The position numbers and the translations under genes were made by a program. This document shows, piece after piece, positions 10,567 to 25,179 of a DNA stretch of 39,880 nucleotides (position 1 is its first letter; the number at the start of each line of letters is the position of its first letter). This DNA is from a virus (taxonomy: Duplodnaviria; Caudoviricetes): positions 1 through 39,880 of IMG/VR virus record IMGVR_UViG_3300032237_000346; one strand, written 5' to 3'. The notes beneath the pieces were generated by a model. That model did not search any database. It was given only the letters and a program-made list of their open reading frames with translations, and was not told the DNA's origin.

Positions 10567-10575
10567 GAGAATTAA

Positions 10576-10878: not shown

Positions 10879-11152
10879 AGACATAATCATTGCTGAGTTA
10901 CCTAATGTAATGGAGCAGGTTAACGAAGCATCACGGCAAATCTATGACCCAAATACTATTTGGTTAGAGGCTATTCAGTTTGCAGATTATGTTGGTCAGT
11001 TTGGTGAACACCTACAAGAACATCATGGTCCTGATTGTGTTGCTGAAATTGCAGCAGGTTTAATTAACTTGGCTGATTCTTTTAAAGAGATGGGCGAGAG
11101 CGCCCTTACGGTTATTGATGAGAGCGAGGCTATGGATGGCACACAGCAGTAA
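10835..11152 (+). CDS. Hypothetical acidic helical protein
   Basis: Likely start ATG 10835 within ORF 10736..11152. Confidence 0.6.
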   Translation: MEAVLSKLKVPQEVKDIIIAELPNVMEQVNEASRQIYDPNTIWLEAIQFADYVGQFGEHLQEHHGPDCVAEIAAGLINLADSFKEMGESALTVIDESEAMDGTQQ

Positions 11153-11870
11153 AGAAACATTATCCGTTGGTTGGTGTGACAATGGTTTGACTGACGGTAA
11201 GTTCACCGAAGGTCTGATGTACACCACAATCACAGCACCAACACGCAACATTGGTATTCATAACGCGGTGCGTGTGCAAGGTAATCAGATTGGTCGCCAA
11301 CGCCAAGCGCTGTTTGACATGTGGGCAGATAACATTAAGACAGATTGGTTGCTATGGGTTGACTCTGACATCGTGCTAACCCTTGACATCCTTGAGTTGT
11401 TATGGAATACAGCAGACAAAGTGGCTCGCCCTGTTGTATCGGGTGTGTACTTCATCTCTAAGCAGATGGAGTCATCATTGATGCAACCTATGCCTGCATT
11501 GTTTGATGAAGGTAGCAATGAGTTTGAGATTAAGTACAAGCACCCGCTACCTAAAGACCAAATCATTAAGGTAGATAACGCAGGGCTTGGGCTTACCCTG
11601 ATGCATAAGTCTGTGGTTCCTGCATTAAGACAGAAGTTTCCAGACCAGTCTATGTTTGCAGAGATTGAGAATGTGGGTGAGAAGTTTGTGGGTGAGGACA
11701 TTGTGTTCTTCCGTAAACTTAAAGCAGCAGGTGTACCTGTACATGCACACACTGGTGCTATCGCAAAGCACATGAAGCGCTTTGCTTACGATGAGAATTA
11801 CTATGCACTGTACTGGCAAGCAGCACAAGCAGCAGCGAATCAGGAGAACAACAATGGACCACAAGGTTAA
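11136..11870 (+). CDS. Glycosyltransferase (GT-A fold, GT2-like)
   Basis: WLLWVDSD (DxD), VVSGVY, AGLGLTLMHKSV, GEDIVFF, HTG...H.K motifs. Confidence 0.8.
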   Translation: MAHSSKETLSVGWCDNGLTDGKFTEGLMYTTITAPTRNIGIHNAVRVQGNQIGRQRQALFDMWADNIKTDWLLWVDSDIVLTLDILELLWNTADKVARPVVSGVYFISKQMESSLMQPMPALFDEGSNEFEIKYKHPLPKDQIIKVDNAGLGLTLMHKSVVPALRQKFPDQSMFAEIENVGEKFVGEDIVFFRKLKAAGVPVHAHTGAIAKHMKRFAYDENYYALYWQAAQAAANQENNNGPQG

Positions 11871-12177
11871 TAGAAACACAGTAATAATTGCACAAGCAGC
11901 AAGGCATACATCAAGAACTGCTGCACTAAAAGCATTACCGCGTACTGGTTCTTGGCGTGCAAAAGTTTACGAGTTTATTAAACTGCAAGGTTTTAATGGG
12001 GCAACAGACCAAGAGATAGAATCTTTCTTAAGTCTCAATGGCAATACTGTACGCCCAACTCGCATGACATTATTAAAAGATGGGTTCATTGTTGATTCAG
12101 GTCGCACAAGAAAAAACATTAACGATAATGATTGCATCGTATGGATTTCTTCAACAGAGGAAGGCAAATTATTTTAA
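11854..12177 (+). CDS. Winged-HTH DNA-binding protein
   Basis: GATDQEI......NTVRPTRMTL..DGFIVDSG.TR...IVW; RBS caggag. Confidence 0.7.
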   Translation: MDHKVNRNTVIIAQAARHTSRTAALKALPRTGSWRAKVYEFIKLQGFNGATDQEIESFLSLNGNTVRPTRMTLLKDGFIVDSGRTRKNINDNDCIVWISSTEEGKLF

Positions 12178-12542
12178 TGGTAACACAGCAAGCAAGTAAC
12201 AAGCGTAGGGGCGCAGCATTTGAGATTGACCTAGCCGATTGGTTGATGGAGAACGGGTACAACGCACAGCGTTTACCTCGTGCTGGTCGCAATGACATTG
12301 GTGATGTTGCACTACCTACTGGCAACGACATCTATGTGATTGAAGCCAAGGCACCACGGCGTGACGGCAAGATAGATTTATCTGGGTGGATTCGTGAGGC
12401 ACAGATAGAGGCGGAGAACTACCGTATTGCTAAGCGATTGAAGATTGCACCTACGCCATTGGTTATTATCAAGGCATCTAACAAGGGGATTGAGGATGCT
12501 TATGTAGTACAAAGGCTCAGTGATGCTCTTGCAAAACTCTAA
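12177..12542 (+). CDS. Holliday junction resolvase (Hjc-type PD-(D/E)XK)
   Basis: KRRGAAFE..LA..L, DIGD, VIEAK. Confidence 0.8.
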   Translation: MVTQQASNKRRGAAFEIDLADWLMENGYNAQRLPRAGRNDIGDVALPTGNDIYVIEAKAPRRDGKIDLSGWIREAQIEAENYRIAKRLKIAPTPLVIIKASNKGIEDAYVVQRLSDALAKL

Positions 12543-12900
12543 GCATGACTTGGCAAAAGTACTAGAACATTACGGCTTTGACATACCGCAAGGTAAACGC
12601 GGGTGGGTGACTGTGCGCTGTGCCTTCCACGGTGATAGAGTAAAGTCTGCTCGTCTTAATACAGAAAACGGTGGGTTCAGATGCTTCGGCTGCGACATGG
12701 CTGGAGATGTGTACTCAATCATTATGAAGAAAGAAGGAGTGACTTTCAATGAGGCTAAGCAAATCGCAGAGAGAATTACTGGAGAGAGCAACGGAGACTT
12801 ACGCTCAAAACCTCGTGGAGATTCTTCCGTATCTGGAGAGTCGCGGTATAACGGAGGCAACGGCTCGTATGTTTCGCCTCGGCTTCGTAAAAAATCCTGA
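12520..12900 (+). CDS. DNA primase zinc-binding (CHC2) subunit
   Basis: CAFHGDRVKSA...FRCFGCDMAGDVY..I...EG..F.EA. Confidence 0.85.
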   Translation: MMLLQNSKHDLAKVLEHYGFDIPQGKRGWVTVRCAFHGDRVKSARLNTENGGFRCFGCDMAGDVYSIIMKKEGVTFNEAKQIAERITGESNGDLRSKPRGDSSVSGESRYNGGNGSYVSPRLRKKS

Positions 12901-13381
12901 GGTAGGACATGAGCCTTACATTGGTAAGTTATCTATTCCATACCTAACACCATCTGGAACTATTGACATACGCTTTCGTGCCTTAAGTCCTGATGCTGCT
13001 GGTCCGAAGTACATGTCAAGACCAGGGGCTACCACTCACATCTTTAACATCAACGCATTGAACAAAGATGATGACACACTAATCGTGTGCGAAGGTGAAC
13101 TTGATACTGTTGTTGCTACACAAGCAGGCTTTGCTGCAGTTGGTTTACCAGGTGCCAACAATTGGAAACCTTTTTACTCACGAGTACTTGCTGACTGGAC
13201 AAAAGTAATTCTGCTCTGCGATGGAGACAACGCTGGCAGGGAGATGGCTAAGAATCTAAGTAGAGAACTAGACAATGTATTCCCTGTGTTCATGCCTGAG
13301 GGTCAGGATGTTAACGATGTCTACCTAGCAGAAGGGGCAGACGGTTTGCGAAAGCGAGTCGGCGTGCTAATACATGGCTAA
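12749..13381 (+). CDS. DNA primase TOPRIM subunit
   Basis: YLESRGI, FRLG, PKY, VCEGELD, DGDNAG, GQDVND; has its own RBS aaggag. Confidence 0.88.
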   Translation: MRLSKSQRELLERATETYAQNLVEILPYLESRGITEATARMFRLGFVKNPEVGHEPYIGKLSIPYLTPSGTIDIRFRALSPDAAGPKYMSRPGATTHIFNINALNKDDDTLIVCEGELDTVVATQAGFAAVGLPGANNWKPFYSRVLADWTKVILLCDGDNAGREMAKNLSRELDNVFPVFMPEGQDVNDVYLAEGADGLRKRVGVLIHG

Positions 13382-13760
13382 AAATTCATCCTTTGATTTA
13401 GACTTTGGATACGGGCGGAAAGGTGAGAAGTTAGTTGAAGAACTACTCACTGATGGCAAGACAATAGAAGTAAAGCGTGACAGAAAATGGAACAAGACAA
13501 ACAATCTCTACATAGAAGTTGAGTGTTGGTTTCTTAAGACACAATCTTGGGAAGCATCTGGGTTGATGGTAACTGAGGCTGCTTACTGGGCGTTCGTACT
13601 TGAGAAGGGCGTGCTCATGGTACCTACTGACCATGTACACTACGCAATTAAGAACTTTGGTAGAGAGATTACCTGTGAGATTCCCCCGAATAAAAGCAAG
13701 GGCTATCTCATAACAGTTGATAACTTACTAGAGGCAATGAGGCAATTAAAGAATGAGTGA
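13374..13760 (+). CDS. Putative PD-(D/E)XK nuclease-like protein
   Basis: FDLD..YG..GE, IEVKRD, NLYIE. Confidence 0.55.
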   Translation: MAKNSSFDLDFGYGRKGEKLVEELLTDGKTIEVKRDRKWNKTNNLYIEVECWFLKTQSWEASGLMVTEAAYWAFVLEKGVLMVPTDHVHYAIKNFGREITCEIPPNKSKGYLITVDNLLEAMRQLKNE

Positions 13761-14406
13761 CGAGAAAGATTTACTATGGGAACAGGTCTATAAAGTAGCA
13801 CGCTTATCTGCTGCTAGATGTACCCGTATTCATAGGCACTTAGTCACGGCTGATGATGTGTACCAACACCTTAACCTGTGGGCATTAGAACATTGGCACA
13901 AGATTGAGGAGTGGCAATCGCAAGACTCATTGGTATTTAAACTTAAGCGTACATTCAACAACGAGTCGCAGAAGTTTGCTGCTAAAGAGCGTGCCTATAA
14001 AACTAAGTCATCACCATCGGATGCTTTTTATTACACGCATGAGATTTTGCAGGAGTTACTCAAAGATGTGTGGAACTATGAGCAGTGGACAGTATCTTCA
14101 ACACCTAAAGATGATTTCATTTCTACCTCAAGCAAGCCAAGCGAAGGCATGAATCGTGAGGCTATGTTAAGTGATGTGTCTTTCTGTCTTAAGAAATTAA
14201 ATGAACAGGACAACCTGCTTCTACATCGTAGGTTTGCAAATGGTGGCACTGACATAGATGCATTGGCTATTGAGTACAACATTAGTGATGAGGCAGTACG
14301 CAAGCGTGTGTCTCGTGCACTTACCAAGTTACAAGATAGATTAGGTGGCGAACAACCACAATGGAATAACCGTAGATACCGCAAGCCAGACAGGAGTGAA
14401 GAATGA
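13753..14406 (+). CDS. RNA polymerase sigma-factor-like protein (region 4 HTH)
   Basis: ADDVYQ region-2-like segment; LNEQD..LL..RF...DIDALA.EYNISDEAVRKRVSRAL.KL region 4. Confidence 0.7.
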   Translation: MSDEKDLLWEQVYKVARLSAARCTRIHRHLVTADDVYQHLNLWALEHWHKIEEWQSQDSLVFKLKRTFNNESQKFAAKERAYKTKSSPSDAFYYTHEILQELLKDVWNYEQWTVSSTPKDDFISTSSKPSEGMNREAMLSDVSFCLKKLNEQDNLLLHRRFANGGTDIDALAIEYNISDEAVRKRVSRALTKLQDRLGGEQPQWNNRRYRKPDRSEE

Positions 14407-14564
14407 TTGATGTCTTAATAAATAAAATTAAAGATGCCTGTTATCACATACCTTCTGAGTTCTGTAAGTCCAATGAGATGATGAGTATTTACATTAAAGG
14501 TATTACCAATGGCAGAGAGCAAGCAATTAAAATACTGGAGGCAAGCAATGATACTAACTCATGA
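14403..14564 (+). CDS. Hypothetical 53-aa protein
   Basis: ATGA overlap, RBS caggag; translated by hand. Confidence 0.55.
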   Translation: MIDVLINKIKDACYHIPSEFCKSNEMMSIYIKGITNGREQAIKILEASNDTNS

Positions 14565-14673
14565 GTTTAACTGGAGAATGTTTTGTATTGGTATAGTGCA
14601 CTACAAGAATCTTAAATGCATTGAGGTTTACATCGGTCCACTTGCAGTAGGTATTTGGTGGGGTGTTAAATGA
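14548..14673 (+). CDS. Hypothetical 41-aa protein
   Basis: RBS ggagg; ATGA overlap with the kinase gene; translated by hand. Confidence 0.5.
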   Translation: MILTHEFNWRMFCIGIVHYKNLKCIEVYIGPLAVGIWWGVK

Positions 14674-15209
14674 TTATTGGATTGAGTGGATACGCACGCA
14701 GTGGTAAGGACAGCACCGCTGAATTGTTATGTCTTAATTACGGATACCGTAGAGTATCTTTTGCTGACCCAATACGCCATGCGTTGATGCAACTTAACCC
14801 AAAGTTAGATTCCATTGCACGCCTTGCTGAGTTTGTAGATGACTATGGTTGGGATGTAGTCAAGCAAAACCCTGAGGTACGCAGACTGATGCAGGTAATG
14901 GGCACTGAGGTAGGTCGCTCAATGTTTGGTGATGATGTGTGGATTAAGATGGCGCTTCGTGACTTAAGCCCTAACGATAGAGTTGTTATCTCTGATGTTC
15001 GTTATCCCAATGAGGCTAATGCAATCAAAGAATTAAGTGGTTCGCTTTGGCGTATCAACCGACACAATCACAGTGCAGTCAATGGTCACAAGTCTGAGCA
15101 CGCTATGGATAACTACATGTTTAATCATGTTATCTATAATGATGGAACTCTTGATGATTTAAGTGATGAAGTGTTCATGCTTGCTAAGGAACTTGACTTA
15201 GATAAATAA
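14670..15209 (+). CDS. Deoxynucleoside monophosphate kinase
   Basis: IIGLSGYARSGKD, SFADPIR, RRLMQVMGTEVGR, ISDVRYPNE, HKSE. Confidence 0.9.
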   Translation: MIIGLSGYARSGKDSTAELLCLNYGYRRVSFADPIRHALMQLNPKLDSIARLAEFVDDYGWDVVKQNPEVRRLMQVMGTEVGRSMFGDDVWIKMALRDLSPNDRVVISDVRYPNEANAIKELSGSLWRINRHNHSAVNGHKSEHAMDNYMFNHVIYNDGTLDDLSDEVFMLAKELDLDK

Positions 15210-15323: not shown

Positions 15324-15665
15324 TCACCCAAGTTTTGGTTCTGTCAAAGCCCAGCCAATCCTTGCTCTAATCTTGTGGCGCATGGGTGGTGTCATCCCGC
15401 CCCACACCCCGTACCTTTCATGGGCTAAGCCCCATTCAAGGCAAGCCATCATGACTGGGCACTCAACACACATCTTTTCAAACATGCGCTCCTCGTCACG
15501 AGTGAACAACTCCTGTGCTGGGTAAAAAATCTCTGTGTCTATACCCTTGCACACAGCCTTGTCCCATAGCCGTTGGTTGTATCTTAAGACATAACCAATC
15601 AACCCCTTGTTGTATCTATTCTTGCTATGAGTAACGCTGGTTACTGTGTGGAACTGTGGCTTCAT
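15324..15665 (-). CDS. whiB: WhiB-family Fe-S transcription factor
   Basis: W..AVCKG.D.EIFYP, C..CPV...CLEW, YGVWGG.T...R. Confidence 0.93.
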   Translation of the reverse strand: MKPQFHTVTSVTHSKNRYNKGLIGYVLRYNQRLWDKAVCKGIDTEIFYPAQELFTRDEERMFEKMCVECPVMMACLEWGLAHERYGVWGGMTPPMRHKIRARIGWALTEPKLG

Positions 15666-15668
15666 GTC

Positions 15669-16112
15669 TTAATACCAACCCTTTGCTAAGTGATGTGCGT
15701 ATGCCTTGCAGATTGCGCCCTTGCCATAGTGCCTGTCAATGTATGCAAGCCCTGCATCTACCTGTCGGTAGCCGTTGCTCGTGGGTTTAATCTTAAGTAT
15801 CTTCCATGTGCGAGGCATGAGTTGGGCTATGCCCAGCGCATGACTTGACTTGTTCTTTGCTTGCGGTCGCCAGTTAGATTCCTCAGTCCACAATTCATAG
15901 AGACATGTGTACTGTTCTAAATCCCCTTGCTTCATCAACCTGTCAATGGCGTAGCGTTGGTAATCGTTCTGATAGTAGGCAATTATCTTGCCCTTTGGTG
16001 GTGATACAAACTGTTGTCCAGTTGGTGTCTTAAGAACTAAGATAAGTCCCAAGATAATTGTTGTAACAATCCATAACCTAGCGTGTGGGTGAATCAGTTT
16101 TAAGTTGAGCAT
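15669..16112 (-). CDS. Membrane-anchored lytic transglycosylase (SLT/lysozyme-like)
   Basis: N-terminal TM; EESNWRP.A, GIAQLMP, YI..HYG, GWY. Confidence 0.85.
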   Translation of the reverse strand: MLNLKLIHPHARLWIVTTIILGLILVLKTPTGQQFVSPPKGKIIAYYQNDYQRYAIDRLMKQGDLEQYTCLYELWTEESNWRPQAKNKSSHALGIAQLMPRTWKILKIKPTSNGYRQVDAGLAYIDRHYGKGAICKAYAHHLAKGWY

Positions 16113-16275
16113 CTAGTTCTGCCTCTGCCTTCTCATGTAGGTAAGTATCTATGGCTTTATTAGATAGTTCATTGTGATTTAATACACAAGCATCGCACAT
16201 CTCAAGCATGTAGTTAATAACCTTTGGGTTAATTACCATGATGTCGCACTTCAAACAAGGCATTAAGATTGTCAT
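16078..16275 (-). CDS. Hypothetical protein with two CxxC motifs
   Basis: CLKC...CDAC; overlapping operon arrangement. Confidence 0.6.
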   Translation of the reverse strand: MTILMPCLKCDIMVINPKVINYMLEMCDACVLNHNELSNKAIDTYLHEKAEAELDAQLKTDSPTR

Positions 16276-16517
16276 AACAACACCTTGCTGTGTGGCTCAG
16301 TGTTATCTAACTTAAGACAAAAATCATGTACTTCATCAAGCCAATCGGGTGATGTAATGAACCTGCCTTCCATGTCTAGCCATGTCAGTTCGTATCCGTC
16401 AAGGTCGTCCCAGTGCAGGATAACCCGTACTTCTTCGCCGTCAATGGTGAGGTCAAAGTCCTTGTCGTACGCTGTGGTTGCCTTGCTCATAGCCCCAGCC
16501 ATAATTGTGTGTGTCAT
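16272..16517 (-). CDS. Hypothetical acidic protein
   Basis: ORF track; abuts neighbouring genes. Confidence 0.65.
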   Translation of the reverse strand: MTHTIMAGAMSKATTAYDKDFDLTIDGEEVRVILHWDDLDGYELTWLDMEGRFITSPDWLDEVHDFCLKLDNTEPHSKVLL

Positions 16518-16655
16518 TTACTGTTCTCCCATCTCATCATGTAGTCGGTCGGGGTCATCTTCTCCGCAACTGCAATCAACCTTGTCACAATCTTCGCATG
16601 GTTGGTTGATACCCAGTGCTACATCATCTCCGTCTAGCCACATTGGTTCACTCAT
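16518..16655 (-). CDS. Hypothetical 45-aa acidic Cys-rich protein
   Basis: MSEPMWLDGDD...CEDCDKVDCSC..DPDRLHD; GACAGGAGA RBS; translated by hand. Confidence 0.65.
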   Translation of the reverse strand: MSEPMWLDGDDVALGINQPCEDCDKVDCSCGEDDPDRLHDEMGEQ

Positions 16656-16810
16656 TTGTTATCTCCTGTCTCAAGACATGCTGTCTCGGCTGTCCATTTG
16701 TTGTTTGTTTTATTTACTTTTTCTTCTGCTTTATCTATTGCATCTTGTTCATCTATTGCAGTAATTACTACTGTTTTAGTAGTGCTTAAAACTACATGAT
16801 ACTTTGGCAT
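16652..16810 (-). CDS. Hypothetical 52-aa protein
   Basis: MPKYHVVL...; GACAGGAGA RBS; translated by hand. Confidence 0.65.
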   Translation of the reverse strand: MPKYHVVLSTTKTVVITAIDEQDAIDKAEEKVNKTNNKWTAETACLETGDNK

Positions 16811-16968
16811 TACTTTTCTCCTGTCTTAAGTAATACACCTAGAGTTTCTAGGTGATGTTCCATTATGCCTTGCCAGTAGTCAAAGTCCTCGTTATTTGTA
16901 GTAGCGTTTCGCTGTGACCTTGCTCTCTTTATTGCGCTGTGTATTCTTTTAATCTGCTTGTCGCTCAT
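16810..16968 (-). CDS. Hypothetical 52-aa protein
   Basis: MSDKQIKR...LKTGEK; TAATG overlap; translated by hand. Confidence 0.6.
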   Translation of the reverse strand: MSDKQIKRIHSAIKRARSQRNATTNNEDFDYWQGIMEHHLETLGVLLKTGEK

Positions 16969-16971
16969 GTC

Positions 16972-17106
16972 TTAAGAACTAATCTCATACGACTGGCACA
17001 CCATCATTACAACATCGTCAAGTTTTGCTATCAAGTCTGATAGTTCTTGCTCGGTCAAGTGCTTGGTCATGCCTTTTGTAAGTGATGACTTCCATACATT
17101 AGCCAT
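16972..17106 (-). CDS. Hypothetical 44-aa protein
   Basis: Start MANVWK with gaggag RBS. Confidence 0.6.
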   Translation of the reverse strand: MANVWKSSLTKGMTKHLTEQELSDLIAKLDDVVMMVCQSYEISS

Positions 17107-17398
17107 TGCTTTTCTCCTCTGTCTTAAGTACTGACATGAGTGACTTAAGGTGGTCAAGTGCCTGTTGCTTGCGCTTGTAGTTAGTGCCCAGCATTTCGTT
17201 AGCCTTGCGTAGCGTGCTACCTTTGGCAGTCATCTTCATTCCTGTCTTAAGTTCTAACTCAATCCAACTGATGAGAGATAGCAGGATGTATAAGTCCACG
17301 CCTGACCCGCTTGCGCTGGTCATCTCTCCGTTCTCGTTGAATGTCATGTGGTTAGCGCCGTTGGTTAATGCTTCTAGTGTTTCTTCGGGTAGTGCCAT
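17099..17398 (-). CDS. Hypothetical protein
   Basis: Start MALPEE with GACAGGAGA RBS. Confidence 0.65.
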   Translation of the reverse strand: MALPEETLEALTNGANHMTFNENGEMTSASGSGVDLYILLSLISWIELELKTGMKMTAKGSTLRKANEMLGTNYKRKQQALDHLKSLMSVLKTEEKSNG

Positions 17399-17399
17399 G

Positions 17400-17681
17400 T
17401 TAGTTATCTCCTGTCTTGGTGTATTTGGTACGCAATTCATTGTCTTGATAGCAAGCATGGCATAGTGGAATGTCATCATCTATTTTTCCTTCTAGACACA
17501 TAGCCATGTCACAACCCTTACATTTTTTTATTGAGTTATCTTCTGTCTTAAGTAACAATTCGTTATTGAGTTTTGATTTGATGCTGTTGGTAAGTGTGTT
17601 ATCCCACATACCGCCGTTGTCGTTGATTGTTTTGTTGATTGAGTAGAGTACCCAGTCAATCTCTTGTGCTGTTAGTTTCAT
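17400..17681 (-). CDS. Hypothetical protein with C-terminal CxxC pairs
   Basis: GACAGGAGA RBS; directly downstream of a promoter. Confidence 0.65.
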   Translation of the reverse strand: MKLTAQEIDWVLYSINKTINDNGGMWDNTLTNSIKSKLNNELLLKTEDNSIKKCKGCDMAMCLEGKIDDDIPLCHACYQDNELRTKYTKTGDN

Positions 17682-17712
17682 TGTGTTTCTCCTGTCGTTA
17701 GTTGGTAGTTGT

Positions 17713-17767
17713 AGTTAATCGGTTGTGCTATCTGATGTCAAGCATTTGTTGTGTGATGTTGGTCACA
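17713..17767 (-). promoter_or_regulatory. Sigma-A-type promoter (TTGACA-17-TTAACT) with upstream CRP-type box
   Basis: tgtcaa 17736-17741, agttaa 17713-17718, TGTGAtgttggTCACA 17752-17767. Confidence 0.75.
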
Positions 17768-17774
17768 TTGTGTC

Positions 17775-17936
17775 TTAAGGCAGAGGGTATCCAGCAGGAC
17801 ATCCGATTTGCTCTACTAGACATGACTCGGATACATCCCACACACCTAGTGCGCTTGATACTCCGATGATTGCGGTAAGTATTAAGACATAAATAAAGAT
17901 TGCTCTGACCAGTCTGCCTCGGCGTGTTAGTTTCAT
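17775..17936 (-). CDS. Hypothetical 53-aa membrane protein (MKLTRRGRLVR...)
   Basis: LTRRGR plus TM helix; translated by hand. Confidence 0.65.
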   Translation of the reverse strand: MKLTRRGRLVRAIFIYVLILTAIIGVSSALGVWDVSESCLVEQIGCPAGYPLP

Positions 17937-18067
17937 TTGTTTACCTGCTTAGTCATAAGACTTGAAGCAATCAAACGCAAAATCTTTTTGTCGTGATTAC
18001 TTAAGACATAATCTTTTGCATGTTGGCATTGGTTGAGTGGGATTAGGCAGTCTCCGCAAATTGTCAT
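17933..18067 (-). CDS. Hypothetical 44-aa protein (MTICGDCLIP...C.H)
   Basis: ATGA overlap; translated by hand. Confidence 0.55.
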   Translation of the reverse strand: MTICGDCLIPLNQCQHAKDYVLSNHDKKILRLIASSLMTKQVNK

Positions 18068-18078
18068 GTCTTAAGTCA

Positions 18079-18333
18079 CTACCCTTCCAGCGTGTAGCAT
18101 TTAGGGCAGAGGGTGAGTCCGTTATCCTCGCGCTTTTGGTAGTTCTCTGTCCATTCTGAACAACTTTCGCACTCCTCAGCATCAACTTCTTCGCTGGCTG
18201 GGATGATTGAAAGTTGGGCGGTGAACTCTTGGAAGATTTCATCCGCTGTCATTTCATCGGCAGAATAAAACTCGTAGTTGATACTCTCGAAACTTGGCTC
18301 GTGAAGAATCTCTATGCTGTACTTGTGCGCCAT
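18079..18333 (-). CDS. Hypothetical acidic protein with C-terminal zinc ribbon
   Basis: Start MAHKY with gaagg RBS; CESC...CPKC. Confidence 0.65.
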   Translation of the reverse strand: MAHKYSIEILHEPSFESINYEFYSADEMTADEIFQEFTAQLSIIPASEEVDAEECESCSEWTENYQKREDNGLTLCPKCYTLEG

Positions 18334-18334
18334 G

Positions 18335-18523
18335 TTAGTTACCTTCTGTCTTAAGTTCGAAACCCATGTAGTAACCGTCTTTGATGTCGTTCCACATCCA
18401 TTTTTCTGCGTTGCTTGTCCAGCGCTCCACATCTACGGTTCGGCTGACTCCGTTCTGTGTGACTGTGTAGGTGGTGCCTTCTGTCGTGATTGTGTCCCCG
18501 TTAGGGTGTGTCCATGTTGCCAT
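18335..18523 (-). CDS. Hypothetical protein
   Basis: Start MATWTH with GACAGGAGA RBS. Confidence 0.65.
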   Translation of the reverse strand: MATWTHPNGDTITTEGTTYTVTQNGVSRTVDVERWTSNAEKWMWNDIKDGYYMGFELKTEGN

Positions 18524-18545
18524 TGTGCTGTCTCCTGTCGTGCTC

Positions 18546-18636
18546 GGTGGTGAGTATCTCTCGCCTACCTTGTGCCCTAATGGTGCCTTGCTCACCTCGT
18601 GCTCGTCAAGCATTTAGGGCTGTGATTTACATCACA
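18546..18636 (-). promoter_or_regulatory. CRP-type box + TTGACG + three-way junction + leader hairpin (element A)
   Basis: TGTGAtttacaTCACA 18621-18636; gccctaa/ttagggc stem 18574-18620; hairpin 18546-18569. Confidence 0.7.
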
Positions 18637-18650
18637 TTTTTTATTCTGTA

Positions 18651-18785
18651 TTAAGACACGCTCACAATTCTTACCGATTGCTTAAGGCTCTCGGCTATCT
18701 TGCGAAACTCTGCGAAGTTCTCCGCGCTGAGTGTGTTTTGAGATTCCAAACCGCTCCCGCTGTATAAGTTGAAAGTAATCTTCAT
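18651..18785 (-). CDS. Hypothetical 44-aa protein
   Basis: MKITFNLYSGSG...; ggaggtg RBS; ATGA overlap; translated by hand. Confidence 0.6.
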   Translation of the reverse strand: MKITFNLYSGSGLESQNTLSAENFAEFRKIAESLKQSVRIVSVS

Positions 18786-19159
18786 GCTGTCACCTCCGCT
18801 TCTGTCTTAATACCTAAGAACATTTGTTCTCCGTTGCTGTAAGTCCATTGGTTGGTGTCAGGATTCCAAAGGTAGAAATACTCCTCGCCTGCGTTAAAGT
18901 TTCGCACCCAATCGGTAGTGTCAAGAAAGGTGCGGGCGCTGTCGCTTGGTGTGCTGTATGCCCCCGCCTTGGTTTCTTCTATCGTGTCCATGAGTGCAGA
19001 AAATCCACCAAGGGCGATGAGTTGTTCTGCCTGTTCCTTGCTGTTGTAGTTCTGTATTAAGCCAGCACCTACCCCCTCAGGGTATCCGTCCCAGTGGCAA
19101 TAAATTGCCTTAACTGTGCCGTTTTGTGACTTAATACCGATAGTGCTTCTTGTTGCCAT
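18782..19159 (-). CDS. Conserved phage early protein (IYCHWDGYP family)
   Basis: MATRSTI...AIYCHWDGYPEGVG..L...EEYFYLW; GACGGGAGA RBS. Confidence 0.75.
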   Translation of the reverse strand: MATRSTIGIKSQNGTVKAIYCHWDGYPEGVGAGLIQNYNSKEQAEQLIALGGFSALMDTIEETKAGAYSTPSDSARTFLDTTDWVRNFNAGEEYFYLWNPDTNQWTYSNGEQMFLGIKTEAEVTA

Positions 19160-19182
19160 GTTTTTGTTCTCCCGTCTTAATA

Positions 19183-19275
19183 CATGAGCGAGGATTTCCC
19201 GCTTCATGTCGTGCCCTAATTGAGTCATGAACTCGCGCCCTCTGTCAAGGGTTTAGGGCTGTGAGTTGCCTCACA
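19183..19275 (-). promoter_or_regulatory. CRP-type box + TTGACA + three-way junction + leader hairpin (element B)
   Basis: TGTGAgttgccTCACA 19260-19275; stem 19213-19259; hairpin 19183-19208. Confidence 0.7.
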
Positions 19276-19289
19276 TTTTGGTTTTTGTC

Positions 19290-19598
19290 TTAAGCACTAA
19301 TCTTGAGCAACTTCTTCCAAGCCTCGTGCGCTATGTTCTGAGTCTCGTTGAAATCTAACTCGCTGAGTTCTGACTTAAGTAGTCGGCGGTTATACGCCTC
19401 ATCTGCTGAGGCTTGAGTTCCTCTGACCCATAGGGCGATAACTTTATTTCTTAATTCTGCGGGGATAATCTGCATTAAGTCATGAAATGACTCATGCTCG
19501 TCCTTCTGTGCTCGTATCTGCTGACTCATGCGCCATGTTGTAGGGGTTCCAAACCCTCCTTCTTGAGCCTCGTTCCATTGCTTACGGATTGCGTTCAT
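19290..19598 (-). CDS. Hypothetical protein
   Basis: GACAGGAGA RBS; 102 aa. Confidence 0.7.
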   Translation of the reverse strand: MNAIRKQWNEAQEGGFGTPTTWRMSQQIRAQKDEHESFHDLMQIIPAELRNKVIALWVRGTQASADEAYNRRLLKSELSELDFNETQNIAHEAWKKLLKISA

Positions 19599-19622
19599 AG
19601 TTCTGTTCTCCTGTCTTAAGTC

Positions 19623-19695
19623 ACAAGGTGAGACTCTCTCGCCTTGCTAGTGCCCCCGTTGGTCGTGAACCTTTGCCGACTTATCGGGCGGGGGC
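19623..19695 (-). ncRNA. Predicted three-way junction + leader hairpin (element C, no CRP box)
   Basis: gcccccg/cgggggc stem 19652-19695 with two inner hairpins; hairpin 19623-19647; same architecture as elements A and B. Confidence 0.55.
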
Positions 19696-19703
19696 TTTCT
19701 GTC

Positions 19704-19844
19704 TTAAGCCTTAACTTTTGAGATTTGGCGCTTGAGTTTCTTCTCTAACTTTTCGAGGCGCTGGCTTCTCTCGTCCCCGTGAGTGCCTACACTGTCGAAC
19801 TGAATCGCTGAGAGTATGTCGCGCAATTCTTTTTCTGTGAACAT
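19704..19844 (-). CDS. Hypothetical 46-aa protein
   Basis: Start MFTEKEL with GACAGGAGA RBS. Confidence 0.65.
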   Translation of the reverse strand: MFTEKELRDILSAIQFDSVGTHGDERSQRLEKLEKKLKRQISKVKA

Positions 19845-19912
19845 TTCTTCTCCTGTCTTAAGTAAGGGAGGGGGCGGGCTTTCCGCCCCTCTCCTTTCTT
19901 CTGTCTTAAGTC

Positions 19913-20554
19913 TTAAGCCTCCTTGAAGATTTCTTCGCATGTGTTGCAGGTCACACCGCTTTCAAGGACACCGCGAGAGAGGCGGATTACATTTTCACAT
20001 TCGCACATTGCCTTGATTAGGTTGGTGTTTCGTCCCTTAGGCTTGGCGGTTCCCTCGCCTGTCGCGGTAAGTTCTAGCGCCTTGGTGAGAATTGCAAGCG
20101 CCTTGCTCCAGCGCTTGGCTCCGAACTCGGTGAGCGTGGTGCTCGCGTGTCCCTTGCCCTTGATTTCCTCGGTCTTAAGACCTAACGCCTCGGCTTGTGT
20201 CTTAAATTTGGCGTTATGGTATTGGTTCGCGCTGCAATCTTGGATGCCGTTAGCGTGGTTGAGAGAGTGAGCAACCTCATGCAACAGGGTGCTCAATAGT
20301 TCTGCCCCTGTTGTGAAATGCTCAAGGTTGAAGGCAATCTCATGGAAAGATTCTGTCCCTGTTGTCCATGGGGTGTAAGGGGTGAAGTGTCCCTTGGCAC
20401 CCTTGAGGTTACGGGTCACGAGAATTGTGGCGCGGGGTGCGCCTGTTTCTGTCTTAATCAACTCGTGAGCCTGTTCTAACGCCTTGGTGAGGGTGCTTAG
20501 CGCCTCTGCCTTGCTTGCCTTGTTTCCTGTCTTAAGTGCTGTTGTTGCTGTCAT
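19913..20554 (-). CDS. SprT-like zinc metalloprotease domain protein
   Basis: TLLHEVAH (HExxH), YHN..FK..AE..GL, C-terminal CEC...CNTC. Confidence 0.8.
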   Translation of the reverse strand: MTATTALKTGNKASKAEALSTLTKALEQAHELIKTETGAPRATILVTRNLKGAKGHFTPYTPWTTGTESFHEIAFNLEHFTTGAELLSTLLHEVAHSLNHANGIQDCSANQYHNAKFKTQAEALGLKTEEIKGKGHASTTLTEFGAKRWSKALAILTKALELTATGEGTAKPKGRNTNLIKAMCECENVIRLSRGVLESGVTCNTCEEIFKEA

Positions 20555-20599
20555 TTCTTGATTCTCCCGTCATCGGCTTAAATCCTTGTGACTTAAGCA

Positions 20600-20673
20600 C
20601 TAGGAGATTTCTACACTACCTCCCGCCATGCCCTCAACATTTGGCGCCATTTGGCGGTGTGATTCTCATCACA
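20600..20673 (-). promoter_or_regulatory. First early promoter region with CRP-type box
   Basis: TGTGAttctcaTCACA 20658-20673, a tandem cgccaaatg duplication, then TTGAGG on the minus strand. Confidence 0.6.
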
Positions 20674-21228: not shown

Positions 21229-23097
21229 ATGCCTATGGAAACTAAAAGAGTTAACTCGCAAACTAAAAACGCCGATGCTATTAAAAAGCAAATTATAGAA
21301 TTTCTGATGGAGGGGTACTCCGTCCAAAAGGCGATGGATGCTGTCGGTCGGTCCGTTAAGACCTACGAATACTACCGCAAGACCGATGAGACATTCCGTA
21401 CCCAGATAGACAAAGTGCGGTCTATGACCGCCCGTGGCGAACTACAGACAGGTACCGTAGAGGTGCCACCGTTCCCAGAGTTTTCATCCAGATACCTTGG
21501 GGTAGAAGTCTTTACCCATCAAAAGCACTGGATTGATTTACTGGAGGGTACACCCCCCTCCGATATACACCCTAGCATCATCTATGAGCCTGGGGATAAA
21601 GATTTAATTATTGTTAATACACCGCCTGAGCACGCCAAGTCTACGACCATTACGGTCAACTACGCGCTCTACCAGATTTGCCGTAACCCTAACATCCGTA
21701 TCTTGGTGGTGTCCAAGACTCAGGCTATGGCGCAAAAGTTCCTGCTCTCCATTAAGAACAGACTCACCCATCCTCGTTATCAGGACTTACATCTTGCCTT
21801 TGGACCTCCAGGCGGCTTTGAAAAGAACTCTGATTCATGGAAGCAGGACTTAATTTACTTATCCTCAGAGGCTCGTAACTCTGGTGAAAAAGACCCAACA
21901 GTTCAAGCCATTGGTGTCCGTGGACATATCTACGGTGCTCGTGCTGACTTGATTATCATGGACGACTGTGTTGACCATACCAACGCCCATGAGTACGAAA
22001 AGCAGATTGACTGGATTCAATCCGAAGTTATGTCGCGTATTGACAATGACGGGGGTAAGTTACTTGTCGTAGGTACACGCTTGCGCCCAAGAGACTTGTA
22101 CTCAGAATTGCGCGACCCTATGCGCTACCCTGACGAGACATCCCCATGGACCTACTTTGCACAACCTGCGGTATTAGAATTTAAAGATGAATACAAAGAC
22201 TGGGTAACGCTCTGGCCGAAAACCAATATGCCACCCGTCTCGGGTAAAGGTACACCCGATGAGGATGGACTCTATACCAAGTGGGATGGTGAGGCGCTTT
22301 CTAAAAAGCGTAGTCGTATGTCTCCCAACTTGTGGGCAATGGTTTACCAACAACAACAGGTGCATGAAGATTCTGCTTTCCCTGCTGCAGCAATCAAGGG
22401 TGTCATTAACGGTGCCCGTAACATTGGTTTGATTCCAAAAGGTAAGGCAGGCAACCGACATGAAGGCATGGATGGTTTGGTCGTTGTGGCTGGACTGGAC
22501 CCTGCTATGTCTGGTTATACCGCTGCTGTCTGTATTGCTTTAGACATTGCAAGCCAGAAGCGTTATCTATTAGATGTGTCAAATGTACCTGGTATGAAAC
22601 CAGATGACATCAGAACTCTCATCAAAGACTGGACTGACAAGTACAAAATTTCTGAGTGGCGTGTTGAGAAAAATGCATTTCAAGCGATGTTGACTCAGGA
22701 CCGTGAGGTGCGGGAATACCTATCGGCTAGAGGTGCAACATTGCGTGAACACCATACAGGACAAAATAAATGGGACACGGACTTTGGTGTTGCATCTCTA
22801 ACCACTTTATTCCATGGGTACGAAGAAGGAAATAACTTAATTGAGTTTCCTTCAACTCATTCATCAGAAGGACTCAAGGCTCTTATTGAGCAGTTAGTTA
22901 CCTGGTACCCAGATGCACCCAAGTCACAAAAGACTGACTGCGTTATGGCTTTCTGGTTTACAGAACTTGCAATCCGTGACCGCATCAATAGTGCAAATGT
23001 TTATGCACGCAATCATAATCGTCAATCCATGTTCCATACACGGTATGACAAATCACAACAAGCAACAATTTCTTTATCCGATTTAATGACAATCTAA
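21229..23097 (+). CDS. terL: Terminase large subunit with N-terminal HTH extension
   Basis: PPEHAKST Walker A, GARADLIIMDD Walker B, VVGTR, YQQ, GLDPA nuclease, DCVMAFWF. Confidence 0.92.
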   Translation: MPMETKRVNSQTKNADAIKKQIIEFLMEGYSVQKAMDAVGRSVKTYEYYRKTDETFRTQIDKVRSMTARGELQTGTVEVPPFPEFSSRYLGVEVFTHQKHWIDLLEGTPPSDIHPSIIYEPGDKDLIIVNTPPEHAKSTTITVNYALYQICRNPNIRILVVSKTQAMAQKFLLSIKNRLTHPRYQDLHLAFGPPGGFEKNSDSWKQDLIYLSSEARNSGEKDPTVQAIGVRGHIYGARADLIIMDDCVDHTNAHEYEKQIDWIQSEVMSRIDNDGGKLLVVGTRLRPRDLYSELRDPMRYPDETSPWTYFAQPAVLEFKDEYKDWVTLWPKTNMPPVSGKGTPDEDGLYTKWDGEALSKKRSRMSPNLWAMVYQQQQVHEDSAFPAAAIKGVINGARNIGLIPKGKAGNRHEGMDGLVVVAGLDPAMSGYTAAVCIALDIASQKRYLLDVSNVPGMKPDDIRTLIKDWTDKYKISEWRVEKNAFQAMLTQDREVREYLSARGATLREHHTGQNKWDTDFGVASLTTLFHGYEEGNNLIEFPSTHSSEGLKALIEQLVTWYPDAPKSQKTDCVMAFWFTELAIRDRINSANVYARNHNRQSMFHTRYDKSQQATISLSDLMTI

Positions 23098-23115
23098 CAA
23101 AGGTAGGAGGTGAAC

Positions 23116-24942
23116 ATGGCGCTATCTATTGACGAAATCAAAGATACCTACGACCGTTATCGCCGTATGTACGATGAGCGTGACCAGAGAATGAATCAAG
23201 TTCTTTTGGTTCGTCAAGGCAAGATGCGTGATGTCTACCCAGATTTATTCCCCGATGGTCCTTTTGAGAATCCTATCGTTGCGAATATGGTGGATGTTGC
23301 AGCCCGCGACTTAGCAGAAACTATTGCACCGCTACCTGCGTTCAACTGTAACTCTACATCTATGGTGTCTGAGACAGTTCGCCGTAAGGCTGACAAGCGT
23401 GAAGAAATTGTTAACGGCATTGTTGACTTTTCTGATTTGCAATCACAGATGTTTAACGCTGCAGACCGTTATGTAACCTACGGATTTGTACCTGCACAAG
23501 TTGAAATTGACTACGAAGCACAGATGCCACGCATCCGTTTTATGGATTCAATTGGTTCATACCCTGTCATTGACCGCTTTGGTCGTTGCACAATGTTCTT
23601 CCAGCGCATTAACAAGCCAACTCAGGAACTGATGTCTCAGTATCCAGAGATTGCACACTTGATTTATGACAAGAATACACAGTCAACCATGTCTGAGGTT
23701 GTGCGTTTCCATGATGCAGACCAAGATGTTTTGTTCTTGCCTCAGCGCAGCAACCTTGTTCTTGACCGTGCTCCAAACCCAATGGGTGAATGTATGGTTC
23801 GCGTTGTACGCCGACCATCTATTGATGACCAATCACGAGGTCAGTTTGATGATGTATTAGCAATTCAAGTTGCTAAGGCTCGTTATGCGCTACTTTCTTT
23901 GGAAGCAGCAACCAAATCAGTACAGGCACCTATCGCAATGCCTCAGGATGTACAGGAGTTAGCCCTTGGACCAGATGCAATTATGCGTTCCAGCAAGCCT
24001 AATGAAATTCGTAGAGTACCGCTTGAACTACCTGCAAATACTTTCCAACAGCAGCATGTTCTTGAAAGCGAACTACGCTTAGGTTCACGCTATCCAGAGA
24101 CACGCACTGGTAATTCAGATGCTTCTATCATCACAGGTCGTGGTGTTCAGGCTCTTATGGGTGGTTTTGACACACAAATCAAAACAGCACATGCAATGTT
24201 TGCCCGTACATTTACAGAGTTGATGGCTTTAGCACTTAAGACAGATGAAAAAGTTTTTGGTAAGCAAGAAAAAACACTAGAAGGTATCTTCAATGGTACC
24301 CCGTACAACATTAAGTACAAGCCATCACGAGATATTGACGGCGATTACACAGTTGATGTGCAGTATGGATTGATGGCAGGACTTGACCCCAACCGTGCGT
24401 TGGTATTTGGTCTACAGGCTCGCGGAGATAAGTTGATTTCCCGTGATTTCCTACGCCGTCAGATGCCATTTAACTTCAATGCTACACAAGAAGAAGAAAA
24501 AGTTGAAACAGAAGAACTGCGTGATGCAATGAAGCAGGCTATTGCTTCGTATGCACAAGCAATTCCAGCACTTGCTTCACAAGGTCAAGACCCATCAGAC
24601 ATTTTAGTAAAACTTTCCACCGTAATTAGCGAACGCCAAAAGGGAACAGCAATTGAAGTTGCTATTCAAAAGGCGTGGGCACCACAGAATCCCCCTCCTG
24701 CTGCTACCCCTGCAGAAGTAAGTCCTCAAATGGGGCAACCAGGTGCGGTTCCAGCAGGTGCGGGGCAAGAACAACCAGGACAACTACCTCCAGGCTTAGC
24801 GCCTACAGGTCGTATGCAAGGTGTAGCAGCGGGACAATTAGCACCAGGCGGTCGTCCTGACATTCAATCGCTACTAGCAGGTTTAACCCAACGGGGAGAG
24901 CCTAATCTTCAGGCATCTCTTATCAAACGCTTACCCGCTTAG
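23116..24942 (+). CDS. Portal protein
   Basis: About 608 aa directly after the terminase; AGGAGGTG RBS; Pro/Gln/Gly-rich C-terminal tail typical of podoviral portals. Confidence 0.8.
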   Translation: MALSIDEIKDTYDRYRRMYDERDQRMNQVLLVRQGKMRDVYPDLFPDGPFENPIVANMVDVAARDLAETIAPLPAFNCNSTSMVSETVRRKADKREEIVNGIVDFSDLQSQMFNAADRYVTYGFVPAQVEIDYEAQMPRIRFMDSIGSYPVIDRFGRCTMFFQRINKPTQELMSQYPEIAHLIYDKNTQSTMSEVVRFHDADQDVLFLPQRSNLVLDRAPNPMGECMVRVVRRPSIDDQSRGQFDDVLAIQVAKARYALLSLEAATKSVQAPIAMPQDVQELALGPDAIMRSSKPNEIRRVPLELPANTFQQQHVLESELRLGSRYPETRTGNSDASIITGRGVQALMGGFDTQIKTAHAMFARTFTELMALALKTDEKVFGKQEKTLEGIFNGTPYNIKYKPSRDIDGDYTVDVQYGLMAGLDPNRALVFGLQARGDKLISRDFLRRQMPFNFNATQEEEKVETEELRDAMKQAIASYAQAIPALASQGQDPSDILVKLSTVISERQKGTAIEVAIQKAWAPQNPPPAATPAEVSPQMGQPGAVPAGAGQEQPGQLPPGLAPTGRMQGVAAGQLAPGGRPDIQSLLAGLTQRGEPNLQASLIKRLPA

Positions 24943-24958
24943 GAGGAGGTGAAAAAAT

Positions 24959-25147: not shown

Positions 25148-25151
25148 TTTA

Positions 25152-25179
25152 AAATCCTGGACATGATTTAAAACTGTCC
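25152..25179 (+). other. Predicted H-type RNA pseudoknot, copy 2
   Basis: aaatc-ct-ggaca-t-gattt-aaaac-tgtcc; covaries with 4447-4473. Confidence 0.6.

What the first reader, a model, noticed from the sequence alone, without database searches (positions are those of the whole stretch)
15583..20597. Extreme enrichment of GTCTTAA(G/T) across the early region, even inside genes
Seen on +: GTCTTAAG at 16027, 16823, 16969, 17121, 17244, 17545, 17772, 18068, 18348, 19287, 19613, 19701, 19855, 19903, 19910, 20172, 20529; GTCTTAAT at 15666, 18804, 19174, 20451; GTCTTAAA at 20199. Reverse copies lie at about 15583, 16311, 17881, 18000, 18650, and GACTTAA variants at 17142, 19128, 19372, 20590. That is about 27 exact 7-mers where ~0.6 is expected at uniform composition. 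The motif forces LKT/IKT into unrelated proteins and also occurs as stop codons, in spacers and in reverse, so the constraint is on the nucleic acid. A full palindrome GGTCTTAAGACC is at 20171-20182. Sparser TTAAGAC copies occur on + in + strand genes. Inference: stoperator-like repressor sites, loading sites for an ejected or host protein that coats or pulls the first-injected DNA, Chi/KOPS-like polar signals, or decoys for a defence system.
Basis: partly seen in the sequence, partly recalled or inferred. Interest (0 to 1): 0.85.

Follow-up and report, generated by a model that had tools for sequence, protein, structure and literature searches.

The report
Phage operator array, SprT zinc reader
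This bacterial virus carries one exact 7-letter DNA word 53 times, densest over its likely early genes, and across unrelated phages the word changes in step with one small predicted zinc-binding domain on a SprT-like protein, which likely binds these sites and likely switches the early genes off; it is also a likely candidate for a repressor still unidentified in some cultured phages.

Summary
Real. TTAAGAC occurs 53 times (28 in the 5-kb early block); TGTCTTAA 45 against 2.1 in shuffles, and it survives protein-preserving shuffles (15 against 2.9). The window is a complete 39.8-kb podovirus-like actinophage. Relatives carry either this word or GTTTAAAC, never both as arrays. The word tracks the C-terminal zinc ribbon of the first early gene, a SprT-like protein (19913-20554): RN[TK]N arm with TTAAGAC, QxTR arm with GT(T/G)TA(A/C)AC, no crossover in 197 redundant loci. 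The QxTR pairing holds in cultured phages of distant hosts, usually with a site just upstream of the sprT gene itself. Same-host phages with an altered arm have no sites. Many carriers lack the protease motif or the whole protease domain but keep the array. Best reading: an operator/stoperator-like array for a phage-encoded zinc-ribbon repressor of early promoters, four of which carry CRP-type boxes. Binding and repression are inferred, not shown. I found no paper on the pairing. This scan reached the same reading earlier on other DNA (e1-5353731, e1-3286664, e1-6423933).

The parts
15584..20535 (.). Dense array: 28 strand-matches of TTAAGAC (consensus TTAAGACA, quasi-palindrome of GTCTTAAGAC) across the minus-strand early block
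19913..20554 (-). SprT-like protein, 213 aa, first gene of the early block; likely reader of the array; holds 5 matches and ends on a sixth
   Evidence: Pfam PF10263 at 25.6 bits = cut-off; phrog_6361; co-variation
20267..20281 (-). HEVAH zinc-metalloprotease motif (residues 92-96)
   Evidence: sequence; invariant in alignment A2
19916..20044 (-). C-terminal basic arm KPKGRNTN plus four-Cys zinc ribbon (residues 171-213); predicted DNA-binding domain
   Evidence: only invariant columns of A1 (T177, C184, R191); separate domain, pLDDT >90 for 181-213, behind a disordered linker
20590..20596 (-). TTAAGTC variant just downstream of the predicted start of the sprT promoter; likely auto-operator, with the site at 20529-20535 (codons 7-9)
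   Evidence: TTAAG[AT]C within 90 nt upstream in 25 of 39 type-A relatives
20658..20673 (-). TGTGA-N6-TCACA box (CRP-type, name recalled) of predicted early promoter P1
   Evidence: the genome's only four perfect boxes are all in the early block
19260..19293 (-). CRP-type box of P2 (19260-19275) with an array site 11 nt upstream (19287-19293, on a stop codon)
18621..18657 (-). CRP-type box of P3 (18621-18636) with a reverse array site 14 nt upstream (18651-18657)
17752..17778 (-). CRP-type box of P4 (17752-17767) with an array site 4 nt upstream (17772-17778, on a stop codon)
19855..19916 (-). G+C hairpin (19870-19890) behind sprT, flanked by three sites (19855, 19903, 19910)
20172..20181 (.). 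Perfect palindrome GTCTTAAGAC inside sprT
8125..14737 (.). 11 further matches in the replication block
21356..39106 (.). 14 further matches in terminase, portal and virion genes, including a perfect palindrome at 34089-34098

Best explanation
The repeated word is likely the binding site of the predicted zinc-ribbon domain of the phage's own SprT-like protein (19913-20554), which would be made first and would then likely shut off its own and the other early promoters, like an operator/stoperator array. Steps: (1) shown: an exact word is kept by selection on the DNA, at gene junctions, beside the four CRP-type boxes and inside genes; (2) shown: the word co-varies with the arm in front of the zinc ribbon across unrelated phages and hosts; (3) inferred: the domain binds the word in double-stranded DNA, probably as a pair on a dyad (GT-TTAA-AC in one class, GTC-TTAA-GAC in this one); (4) inferred: host RNA polymerase with CRP starts early transcription, the protein accumulates, occludes promoters and road-blocks elongation about every 200 bp, giving an early-to-later switch or a repressed carrier state; (5) open: the role of the protease domain, which is intact here but dispensable in a sister group.
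For: Of 80 terminase relatives, 35 had enough upstream DNA: 18 carry TTAAGAC, 17 carry GTTTAAAC. The label changes 4 times on the terminase tree, at least 3 forced by well-supported branches. The SprT-zinc-ribbon gene is the one early gene shared by TTAAGAC phages (17 of 17 loci), GTTTAAAC relatives (54 of 65) and unrelated GTTTAAAC-rich phages (13 of 26; many loci partial). In a tblastn of three type-B loci against 19 outside loci it hit 14; the next best protein hit 3. Of 201 loci with the domain, 116 RN[TK]N: 105 TTAAGAC-rich, 0 GTTTAAAC-rich; 81 QxTR: 73 GT(T/G)TA(A/C)AC-rich, 0 TTAAGAC-rich. Blind test: records picked only by the protein. GTTTAMAC forward+reverse matches: GardenState 6+10, Maureen 12+5, Crosby 20+21, Dinoroseobacter R26L 20+21, Pan1 16+16, Mica 7+7, Alexa 8+9, ep3 4+4, pPDL2 5+5, reversed-word control 0-2; Floof 17, Persinger 4, phage 4A 14 places. 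Same-host controls: on M. foliorum, Floof (KQGTR) 17 against Dismas, Armstrong and Eden (arm KSRSGKS, protease motif intact, nested in the same SprT clade) 0, 0, 0; on S. griseus ATCC 10137, Crosby 41 matches against Immanuel3 (no such gene) 0. A site lies within 300 nt upstream of the sprT gene in 11 of 13 named QxTR records (expected 0.004-0.02 each) and within 150 nt in 50 of 52 type-B loci, often in the -35/-10 region by my reading. All 62 type-A loci with at least 3 kb have 2 or more sites per kb, as does a clade with 45% terminase identity. Type-B proteins have lost HExxH, and in 7 loci the protein is the 53-57-aa domain alone, with 15-40 sites in those loci. Cluster AZ lysogens are immune with no repressor known (bioRxiv 2020.11.21.392811, passages); Liebe, with an sprT 5' insertion, makes clear plaques and Maureen turbid ones (bioRxiv 2025.05.26.655371, section 14).
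Against: No binding or transcription data. The RN[TK]N proteins are one clade, all in this phage family, so the TTAAGAC pairing is a single origin and rests partly on analogy with the QxTR class; the whole early module is swapped together. The loci are redundant, and type-B and outside loci were found by the motif. Cultured Planktophila phages E7 and F5 have no such gene yet hold 14 and 16 TTAAGAC matches against 6-7.6 expected, with 3 and 4 perfect palindromes, nearly all outside their early block. pPDL2 and phage 4A have no site within 600 nt upstream of sprT, L258 none within 800 nt, and the Ralstonia plasmid has 0 GTTTAMAC (its two sites in the locus are GTGTACAC). Only 25 of 39 type-A genes have an upstream site, mostly the TTAAGTC variant. 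In the window the P2-P4 sites lie upstream of the CRP-type boxes, not in the core promoter. No integrase was found among 53 ORFs scanned, so the need for so strong a silencer is unexplained. Liebe differs from Maureen by three more changes.
Confidence: 0.6

Rival explanations
1. Same reader, different job: the zinc ribbon docks an active SPRTN-like protease, or simply a protein coat, every ~200 bp on early phage DNA to cut or keep off host DNA-binding proteins (restriction enzymes, silencers, RNA polymerase).
For: HExxH is invariant in 133 aligned proteins; SPRTN (6mdw) is among the weak top fold matches (E 0.07); spacing is more even than random; the genome avoids GGCC, TCGA, GACGC and GCSGC. 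ArdC, a DNA-binding metalloprotease fusion, protects plasmid DNA without needing its protease (PMC7213743, passages).
Against: Type-B arrays are as dense with a dead or absent protease. The minimal form is one to four sites with one in the gene's own promoter (ep3, Persinger), which is autoregulator geometry. No PADLOC match.
Confidence: 0.2
2. A host protein (nucleoid protein, translocase, methylase or defence sensor) reads the word, and the SprT type only tracks the host.
For: E7 and F5 keep palindromic sites without the gene. Hosts of the uncultured phages are unknown, and no candidate host genome could be searched.
Against: One word family spans phages of Actinobacteria and of Alpha-, Beta- and Gammaproteobacteria; phages of one host differ 17:0 and 41:0 by arm. 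One E7 site is homologous to a site in the terminase gene of a sister clade that has the gene, which fits a relict.
Confidence: 0.07
3. Another gene of the swapped early module reads TTAAGAC: WhiB (15324-15665) or the 81-aa protein at 16272-16517.
For: The 81-aa family is in 65 of 66 type-A blocks and 3 of 37 type-B blocks; WhiB proteins are transcription regulators (recalled).
Against: L381 lacks the 81-aa gene and has 28 sites; the three type-B carriers have 1-2. WhiB is in both types, ranges 42-86% within type A, and no window-WhiB-like match joined type B to the outside carriers.
Confidence: 0.06
4. The word acts in RNA, as a translational operator next to ribosome-binding sites, or is a by-product of the family's GACAGGAG ribosome-binding context.
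For: 6 of 17 early genes end on the word and several sites run into AGGAG; F5 has GACAGGAG six times without an array.
Against: 12 of 53 matches are antisense; many lie deep in genes; related words sit in untranscribed promoter DNA; dyad symmetry.
Confidence: 0.04
5. Polar signals for DNA entry, packaging or replication (Chi/KOPS/iteron-like) read by virion or replication proteins.
For: Density falls with distance from the inferred genome end; clusters of four sites about 50 bp apart occur in type-B and outside phages.
Against: The word does not follow terminase, portal, virion or replication genes; the other class is palindromic; one such cluster flanks TTGACA promoter-like sequence.
Confidence: 0.03

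Closest known systems
Operators and stoperators of Cluster A mycobacteriophages (L5, Bxb1; PMC6550527, passages read)
   Same: Tens of short sites across the genome, some at early promoters and most elsewhere; site sequence co-varies with a phage-encoded protein; relatives fall into specificity classes.
   Different: 7-8-bp quasi-palindrome instead of a 13-bp oriented site; a quarter of matches are antisense; the likely reader is a zinc ribbon on a SprT-like protease rather than the Cluster A repressor (HTH, recalled); no integrase found here.
SprT-like protease of Arthrobacter cluster AZ and Microbacterium cluster EH phages (bioRxiv 2025.05.26.655371, section 14; 2020.11.21.392811, passages)
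   Same: Homologous two-domain protein with HExxH and a small predicted C-terminal DNA-binding domain; listed there among repressor candidates.
   Different: Those papers name no binding site (0 hits for TTTACAC, operator, promoter in the first) and predict SPRTN-like function. Here a cognate word is found (GTTTACAC in AZ/EH, TTAAGAC in the window) with a distinct arm class.
SPRTN/Wss1 DNA-dependent metalloproteases (6mdw; search listings only)
   Same: SprT-like protease domain followed by a zinc-binding module; weak fold match (E 0.07).
   Different: SPRTN recognises DNA structure, not a sequence word (from titles and recall); here the zinc module is separated by a linker, survives alone and tracks an exact word.
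ArdC of plasmid R388 (PMC7213743, passages)
   Same: Mobile-element DNA-binding plus metalloprotease fusion whose protease is dispensable.
   Different: ArdC binds ssDNA through another domain and counters restriction; no site array is described in the passages read.
Planktophila phages E7/F5 (PMC10202952, part 1 of 2) and Streptomyces Beephvirinae
   Same: Same genome plan; terminase 45-50%, capsid 67% to E7/F5; supports a freshwater actinobacterial host.
   Different: They lack the SprT-zinc-ribbon gene and an early array.

Membership tests
Cluster A operator/stoperator system | 20-30 or more sites dispersed through the genome, at promoters and elsewhere | tested here: met
   53 matches; sites within 4-14 nt of three of four CRP-type boxes
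Cluster A operator/stoperator system | 13-bp asymmetric site | tested here: not met
   7-8 fixed bases; dyad form in a sister clade
Cluster A operator/stoperator system | Sites oriented with transcription | tested here: inconclusive
   41 sense, 12 antisense; bias inside genes close to coding expectation
Cluster A operator/stoperator system | Site sequence co-varies with a phage-encoded reader | tested here: met
Cluster A operator/stoperator system | Reader is the Cluster A helix-turn-helix immunity repressor | tested here: not met
   No such family hit among 53 ORFs; wHTH in 3 of 66 carriers; the co-varying domain is a predicted zinc ribbon
Cluster A operator/stoperator system | Bound protein blocks initiation and elongation and confers immunity | not testable with these tools
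   needs EMSA, reporters and immunity assays
SprT-like family (PF10263) | Profile match at the curated cut-off and HExxH motif | tested here: met
   25.6 bits = cut-off; HEVAH at 92-96; 13 of 20 members of A1 match
SprT-like family (PF10263) | C-terminal SprT zinc ribbon (PF17283) | tested here: inconclusive
   no Pfam hit; atlas lead 0.75; best fold matches are generic zinc ribbons, Z 3.4, rmsd 2.4, 39 aligned
SPRTN/Wss1 crosslink-repair proteases | DNA-activated proteolysis of DNA-bound proteins | not testable with these tools
   catalytic motif present here, absent in type-B relatives
Chi/KOPS polar motifs | Strictly polar word read by a host enzyme, shared by elements of one host | tested here: not met
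   antisense copies and palindromes; same-host phages differ in the homologous class
Methylase-linked iterated palindromes (HIP1-like, recalled) | Cognate methyltransferase encoded with the word | tested here: inconclusive
   no methyltransferase among 53 ORFs; host genes and methylation not testable

The most novel reading that the evidence does not exclude
A sequence-addressed protease system: a portable 45-residue zinc ribbon with a swappable specificity arm parks an active SPRTN-like metalloprotease every ~200 bp along phage DNA, so that silencing or protection works by cutting proteins at marked sites. It defines a cross-phylum family of phage immunity classes and is the missing repressor of cluster AZ/EH temperate phages.
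Probability: 0.2. Interest if true: 0.9.

Novelty: new variant of a known kind. Interest (0 to 1): 0.75.

Why it matters
It gives a likely ligand and function to a protein annotated only as 'SprT-like protease' or 'transcription elongation protein' in 164 phage records and 74 plasmid records. The domain has 2355 clusters at 50% identity and matched no curated family here. It names a specific gene and site for the unidentified immunity repressor of cluster AZ/EH phages, testable in cultured phages on harmless hosts. It shows how phages of abundant freshwater bacteria may control early genes, and that two specificity classes are swapped within one family. A 53-57-residue stand-alone domain reading an 8-bp word would be an unusually small sequence-specific DNA binder.

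Tried and rejected
Triple-TTAAGAC scan of viral contigs: of 120 loci, the 80 listed with flanks were counted; none belonged to this family, and the 7 motif-rich ones whose contexts I printed were mostly tandem or collagen-type repeats, so no unrelated family with a dispersed TTAAGAC array was found. The genome-contig scan gave 2 phage-like contigs in bins of other taxa and no handle on a candidate host, so host genomes were not searched. The sigma-70 consensus scan found 6 promoter-like sites against 7.4 by chance and missed P1-P4; promoter calls are my reading of TTGAC plus CRP-type boxes. Fold searches gave nothing at E<=0.001 for the full protein or the lone domain, best Z 3.4; no solved relative by sequence; no PADLOC or NCBIfam match. 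A dimer prediction for the lone domain was not available, so the dimer is untested. A search with the mixed alignment A1 could not run; single proteins were used. wHTH (11854), terminase HTH and ejection proteins rejected as readers. No new word could be assigned to the other arm variants: Dismas, Samy, CN1 and Attoomi show none; Armstrong has a 12-bp repeat five times; phiAsp2 has TGACACTTCA 14 times over -35-like boxes, one just upstream of its SprT gene, reader unproven. [quoted passage not shown]

Full report
What the window is. It is a complete virus record with a 123-nt terminal repeat. It encodes terminase, portal, capsid, large virion proteins, primase, helicase, a sigma-like protein, WhiB and a lytic transglycosylase; no integrase or methyltransferase was found among 53 ORFs. 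The closest cultured phages by terminase are Streptomyces Beephvirinae (48-50%) and Planktophila phages E7 and F5 (45%) (names matched through the record titles and PMC10202952, part 1 of 2). A freshwater actinobacterial host is inferred. In Beephvirinae terminase is gene 1 and a block of small minus-strand genes lies at the other end, so 15300-20600 is inferred to be the early block next to a genome end.

The observation. It is confirmed in detail. There are 53 strand-matches, 28 in the early block, with a gradient of 5.3, 1.5, 0.8 and 0 per kb. Keeping the proteins and permuting synonymous codons gives 2.9 against 15 observed in early genes and 9.9 against 24 elsewhere (0 of 1000 each). Six of 17 early genes end on the word (its TAA is the stop), four more sites lie 20-29 nt before a gene end, and several run into the ribosome-binding site. 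A paired control across relatives: [LIFV]KT is written as TTAAGAC in 44 of 61 cases in replication genes of carriers against 9 of 52 in the same genes of the other class, and 61 of 122 against 10 of 71 in terminase and portal.

Two classes in one family. Of 80 terminase relatives, 35 had at least 2.7 kb upstream. Eighteen have TTAAGAC and 17 have GTTTAAAC as the top word, exclusively. On a terminase tree of 19 type-A and 16 type-B rows (L038 left out as a near-copy) the label changes four times. L005 and L007 have window-like terminase, portal and virion proteins but the other word, so the word travels with the early module.

A scan for three GTTTAAAC in a row returned type-B relatives and also unrelated phages: a 50-63-kb group with terminase 23% identical and a 30% G+C group. 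Clustering all ORFs showed one early gene common to all groups, the SprT-like gene, first in the window's early block. Only its C-terminal domain has invariant columns across groups. The arm before the first cysteine reads K[GS]RN[TK]N in TTAAGAC phages and KQxTR in GTTTAAAC phages. Among 201 loci with the domain there is no crossover: 105 of 116 RN[TK]N loci are TTAAGAC-rich and none is rich in the other word; 73 of 81 QxTR loci are rich in GT(T/G)TA(A/C)AC and none in TTAAGAC. The remainder are cut short or low-density high-G+C records. These loci are redundant and some were found by the motif, so the stronger evidence is the blind test.

Blind test. Named records were picked by the protein alone (13 QxTR carriers and 7 with other arms were fetched out of 164 phage and 74 plasmid matches plus the A-like matches). 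Twelve of the 13 QxTR carriers, from Microbacterium, Arthrobacter, Streptomyces, Dinoroseobacter, Burkholderia, Acinetobacter, Pseudomonas, Escherichia, a record labelled Pseudanabaena, phage 4A and a Sphingobium plasmid, hold from 4 places (ep3, Persinger) up to 41 matches (Crosby) of GTTTAAAC or GTTTACAC against 0-2 for the reversed word; the Ralstonia plasmid has none of that form but two GTGTACAC, one 56 nt upstream of the gene. The seven with other arms hold 0-2. Dismas, Armstrong and Eden nest in the same SprT clade as Floof, infect the same host species, keep HExxH, have a changed arm, and have no site where Floof has 17. A site lies within 300 nt upstream of the gene in 11 of 13 carriers and within 150 nt in 50 of 52 type-B loci. 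In GardenState, Crosby, R26L, Mica and Pan1 it overlaps what I read as -35, spacer or start.

The window's class. All 62 type-A loci with at least 3 kb (of 79 fetched) have at least 2 sites per kb. A clade with 45% terminase and SprT identity has the same word, often as the full palindrome GTCTTAAGAC (18 of 20 loci examined), which points to a dyad with one relaxed half; the window has 2 perfect and 3 GTCTTAAGTC forms. RN[TK]N proteins form one clade, so this pairing is one origin. The other near-universal type-A gene (16272-16517) is neither necessary nor sufficient, and the wHTH gene is in 3 of 66.

Anatomy. The model has a SprT-like domain (15-163), a disordered linker and a compact beta-beta-alpha zinc ribbon with pLDDT above 90; the lone type-B domain folds the same way. 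Fold searches give only generic zinc ribbons and a weak SPRTN match. Type-B proteins lack HExxH, and seven loci encode the 53-57-aa domain alone while keeping 15-40 sites, so proteolysis is not needed for the array. The genome's only four perfect TGTGA-N6-TCACA boxes are in the early block. Three have a site 4-14 nt upstream, an arrangement seen in eight of eight type-A relatives printed (at one or more boxes), and P1 has the TTAAGTC variant behind its predicted start. Type-B early blocks lack such boxes, apart from one near the terminase in three of ten.

Mechanism. Most likely the first early protein binds the word and represses its own and the other early promoters, with intragenic and junction sites as road-blocks, as stoperators do in Cluster A mycobacteriophages (PMC6550527, passages). 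Selection and co-variation are shown; binding (about 0.85) and repression (about 0.7 given binding) are inferred. Independent hints: cluster AZ lysogens are immune with no repressor identified (bioRxiv 2020.11.21.392811, passages), and the AZ comparison lists the SprT-like protein as a candidate and notes clear plaques for Liebe, which has a 5' insertion in the gene, against turbid for Maureen (bioRxiv 2025.05.26.655371, section 14). Maureen has a site 39 nt upstream of that gene.

Against. E7 and F5 lack the gene by tblastn and HMM but keep 14 and 16 matches against 6-7.6 expected, with 3 and 4 palindromes, in structural and tail genes and at most one in the early block; one site is homologous to a site of the gene-bearing sister clade. 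I read these as relicts, but a host component is not excluded. Two of 13 named carriers and L258 lack an upstream site. The window has no integrase, so the life-cycle reason for the array is open. No host genome could be searched.

Novelty. It works like an operator/stoperator array but fails membership on site length and reader. Seven literature searches found no description of the word-protein pairing. The link was noted here before I saw that this scan had reached the same reading on other genomes; those notes are not independent support. Verdict: new variant of a known kind, interest 0.75.

Noticed in passing
window 17752-17767, 18621-18636, 19260-19275, 20658-20673: Four CRP-type boxes, the only perfect ones in the genome, ahead of predicted early promoters; conserved in type-A relatives and absent from type-B early blocks, suggesting cAMP-linked control of early genes in one class.
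   Followed up: partly
window 18574-18620 and 19213-19259: GCCCTAA...TTAGGGC inverted repeats enclose the TTGAC element of P2 and P3; similar pairs in relatives.
   Followed up: no
whole window: GGCC (6 against 163 expected, both strands), TCGA, GACGC and GCSGC are strongly avoided, as expected from host restriction.
   Followed up: no
type-B loci, e.g. L007 7826-8593 and L224 2276-3082: Type-B early blocks carry two genes absent from type A (56 and 59 of 65 loci), resembling an amidoligase and a glutamine amidotransferase (labels recalled, not scanned).
   Followed up: no
L333 (phiAsp2) 16978-19897 and elsewhere: TTGACACTTCACAGTCAA-type inverted repeat, core 14 times in 40.7 kb, over -35-like boxes and inside genes, one just upstream of its SprT-like gene pas43, which has a third arm type.
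   Followed up: partly
L449 and L082 (Planktophila phages E7, F5): 3 and 4 perfect GTCTTAAGAC palindromes in structural and tail genes without the SprT-zinc-ribbon gene.
   Followed up: partly
L055, L063 upstream of the SprT gene: GGCAGGG repeated 7-8 times on one strand near the inferred genome end.
   Followed up: no
window 842-2896: Tail-fibre gene with a long Ala/Ser/Thr 21-nt-period repeat; the 7.9-kb tail/lysis block has no array site.
   Followed up: no
L084, L085: Relatives of this phage lie in genome bins labelled Methylococcus and Novosphingobium, probably mis-binned.
   Followed up: no
L330 (GardenState), L331 (Maureen), L445 (Armstrong): Second repeated promoter-linked words: CGTAAGACG (8), TGGCCATCTT (7), ATACTTCTATTG (5), possibly sites for the phage sigma-like proteins.
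   Followed up: no
proteins P0140, P0144, P0161, P0176, P0188, P0189, P0211, P0230, P0257: A subgroup carries a further domain and an acidic tail behind the zinc ribbon.
   Followed up: no
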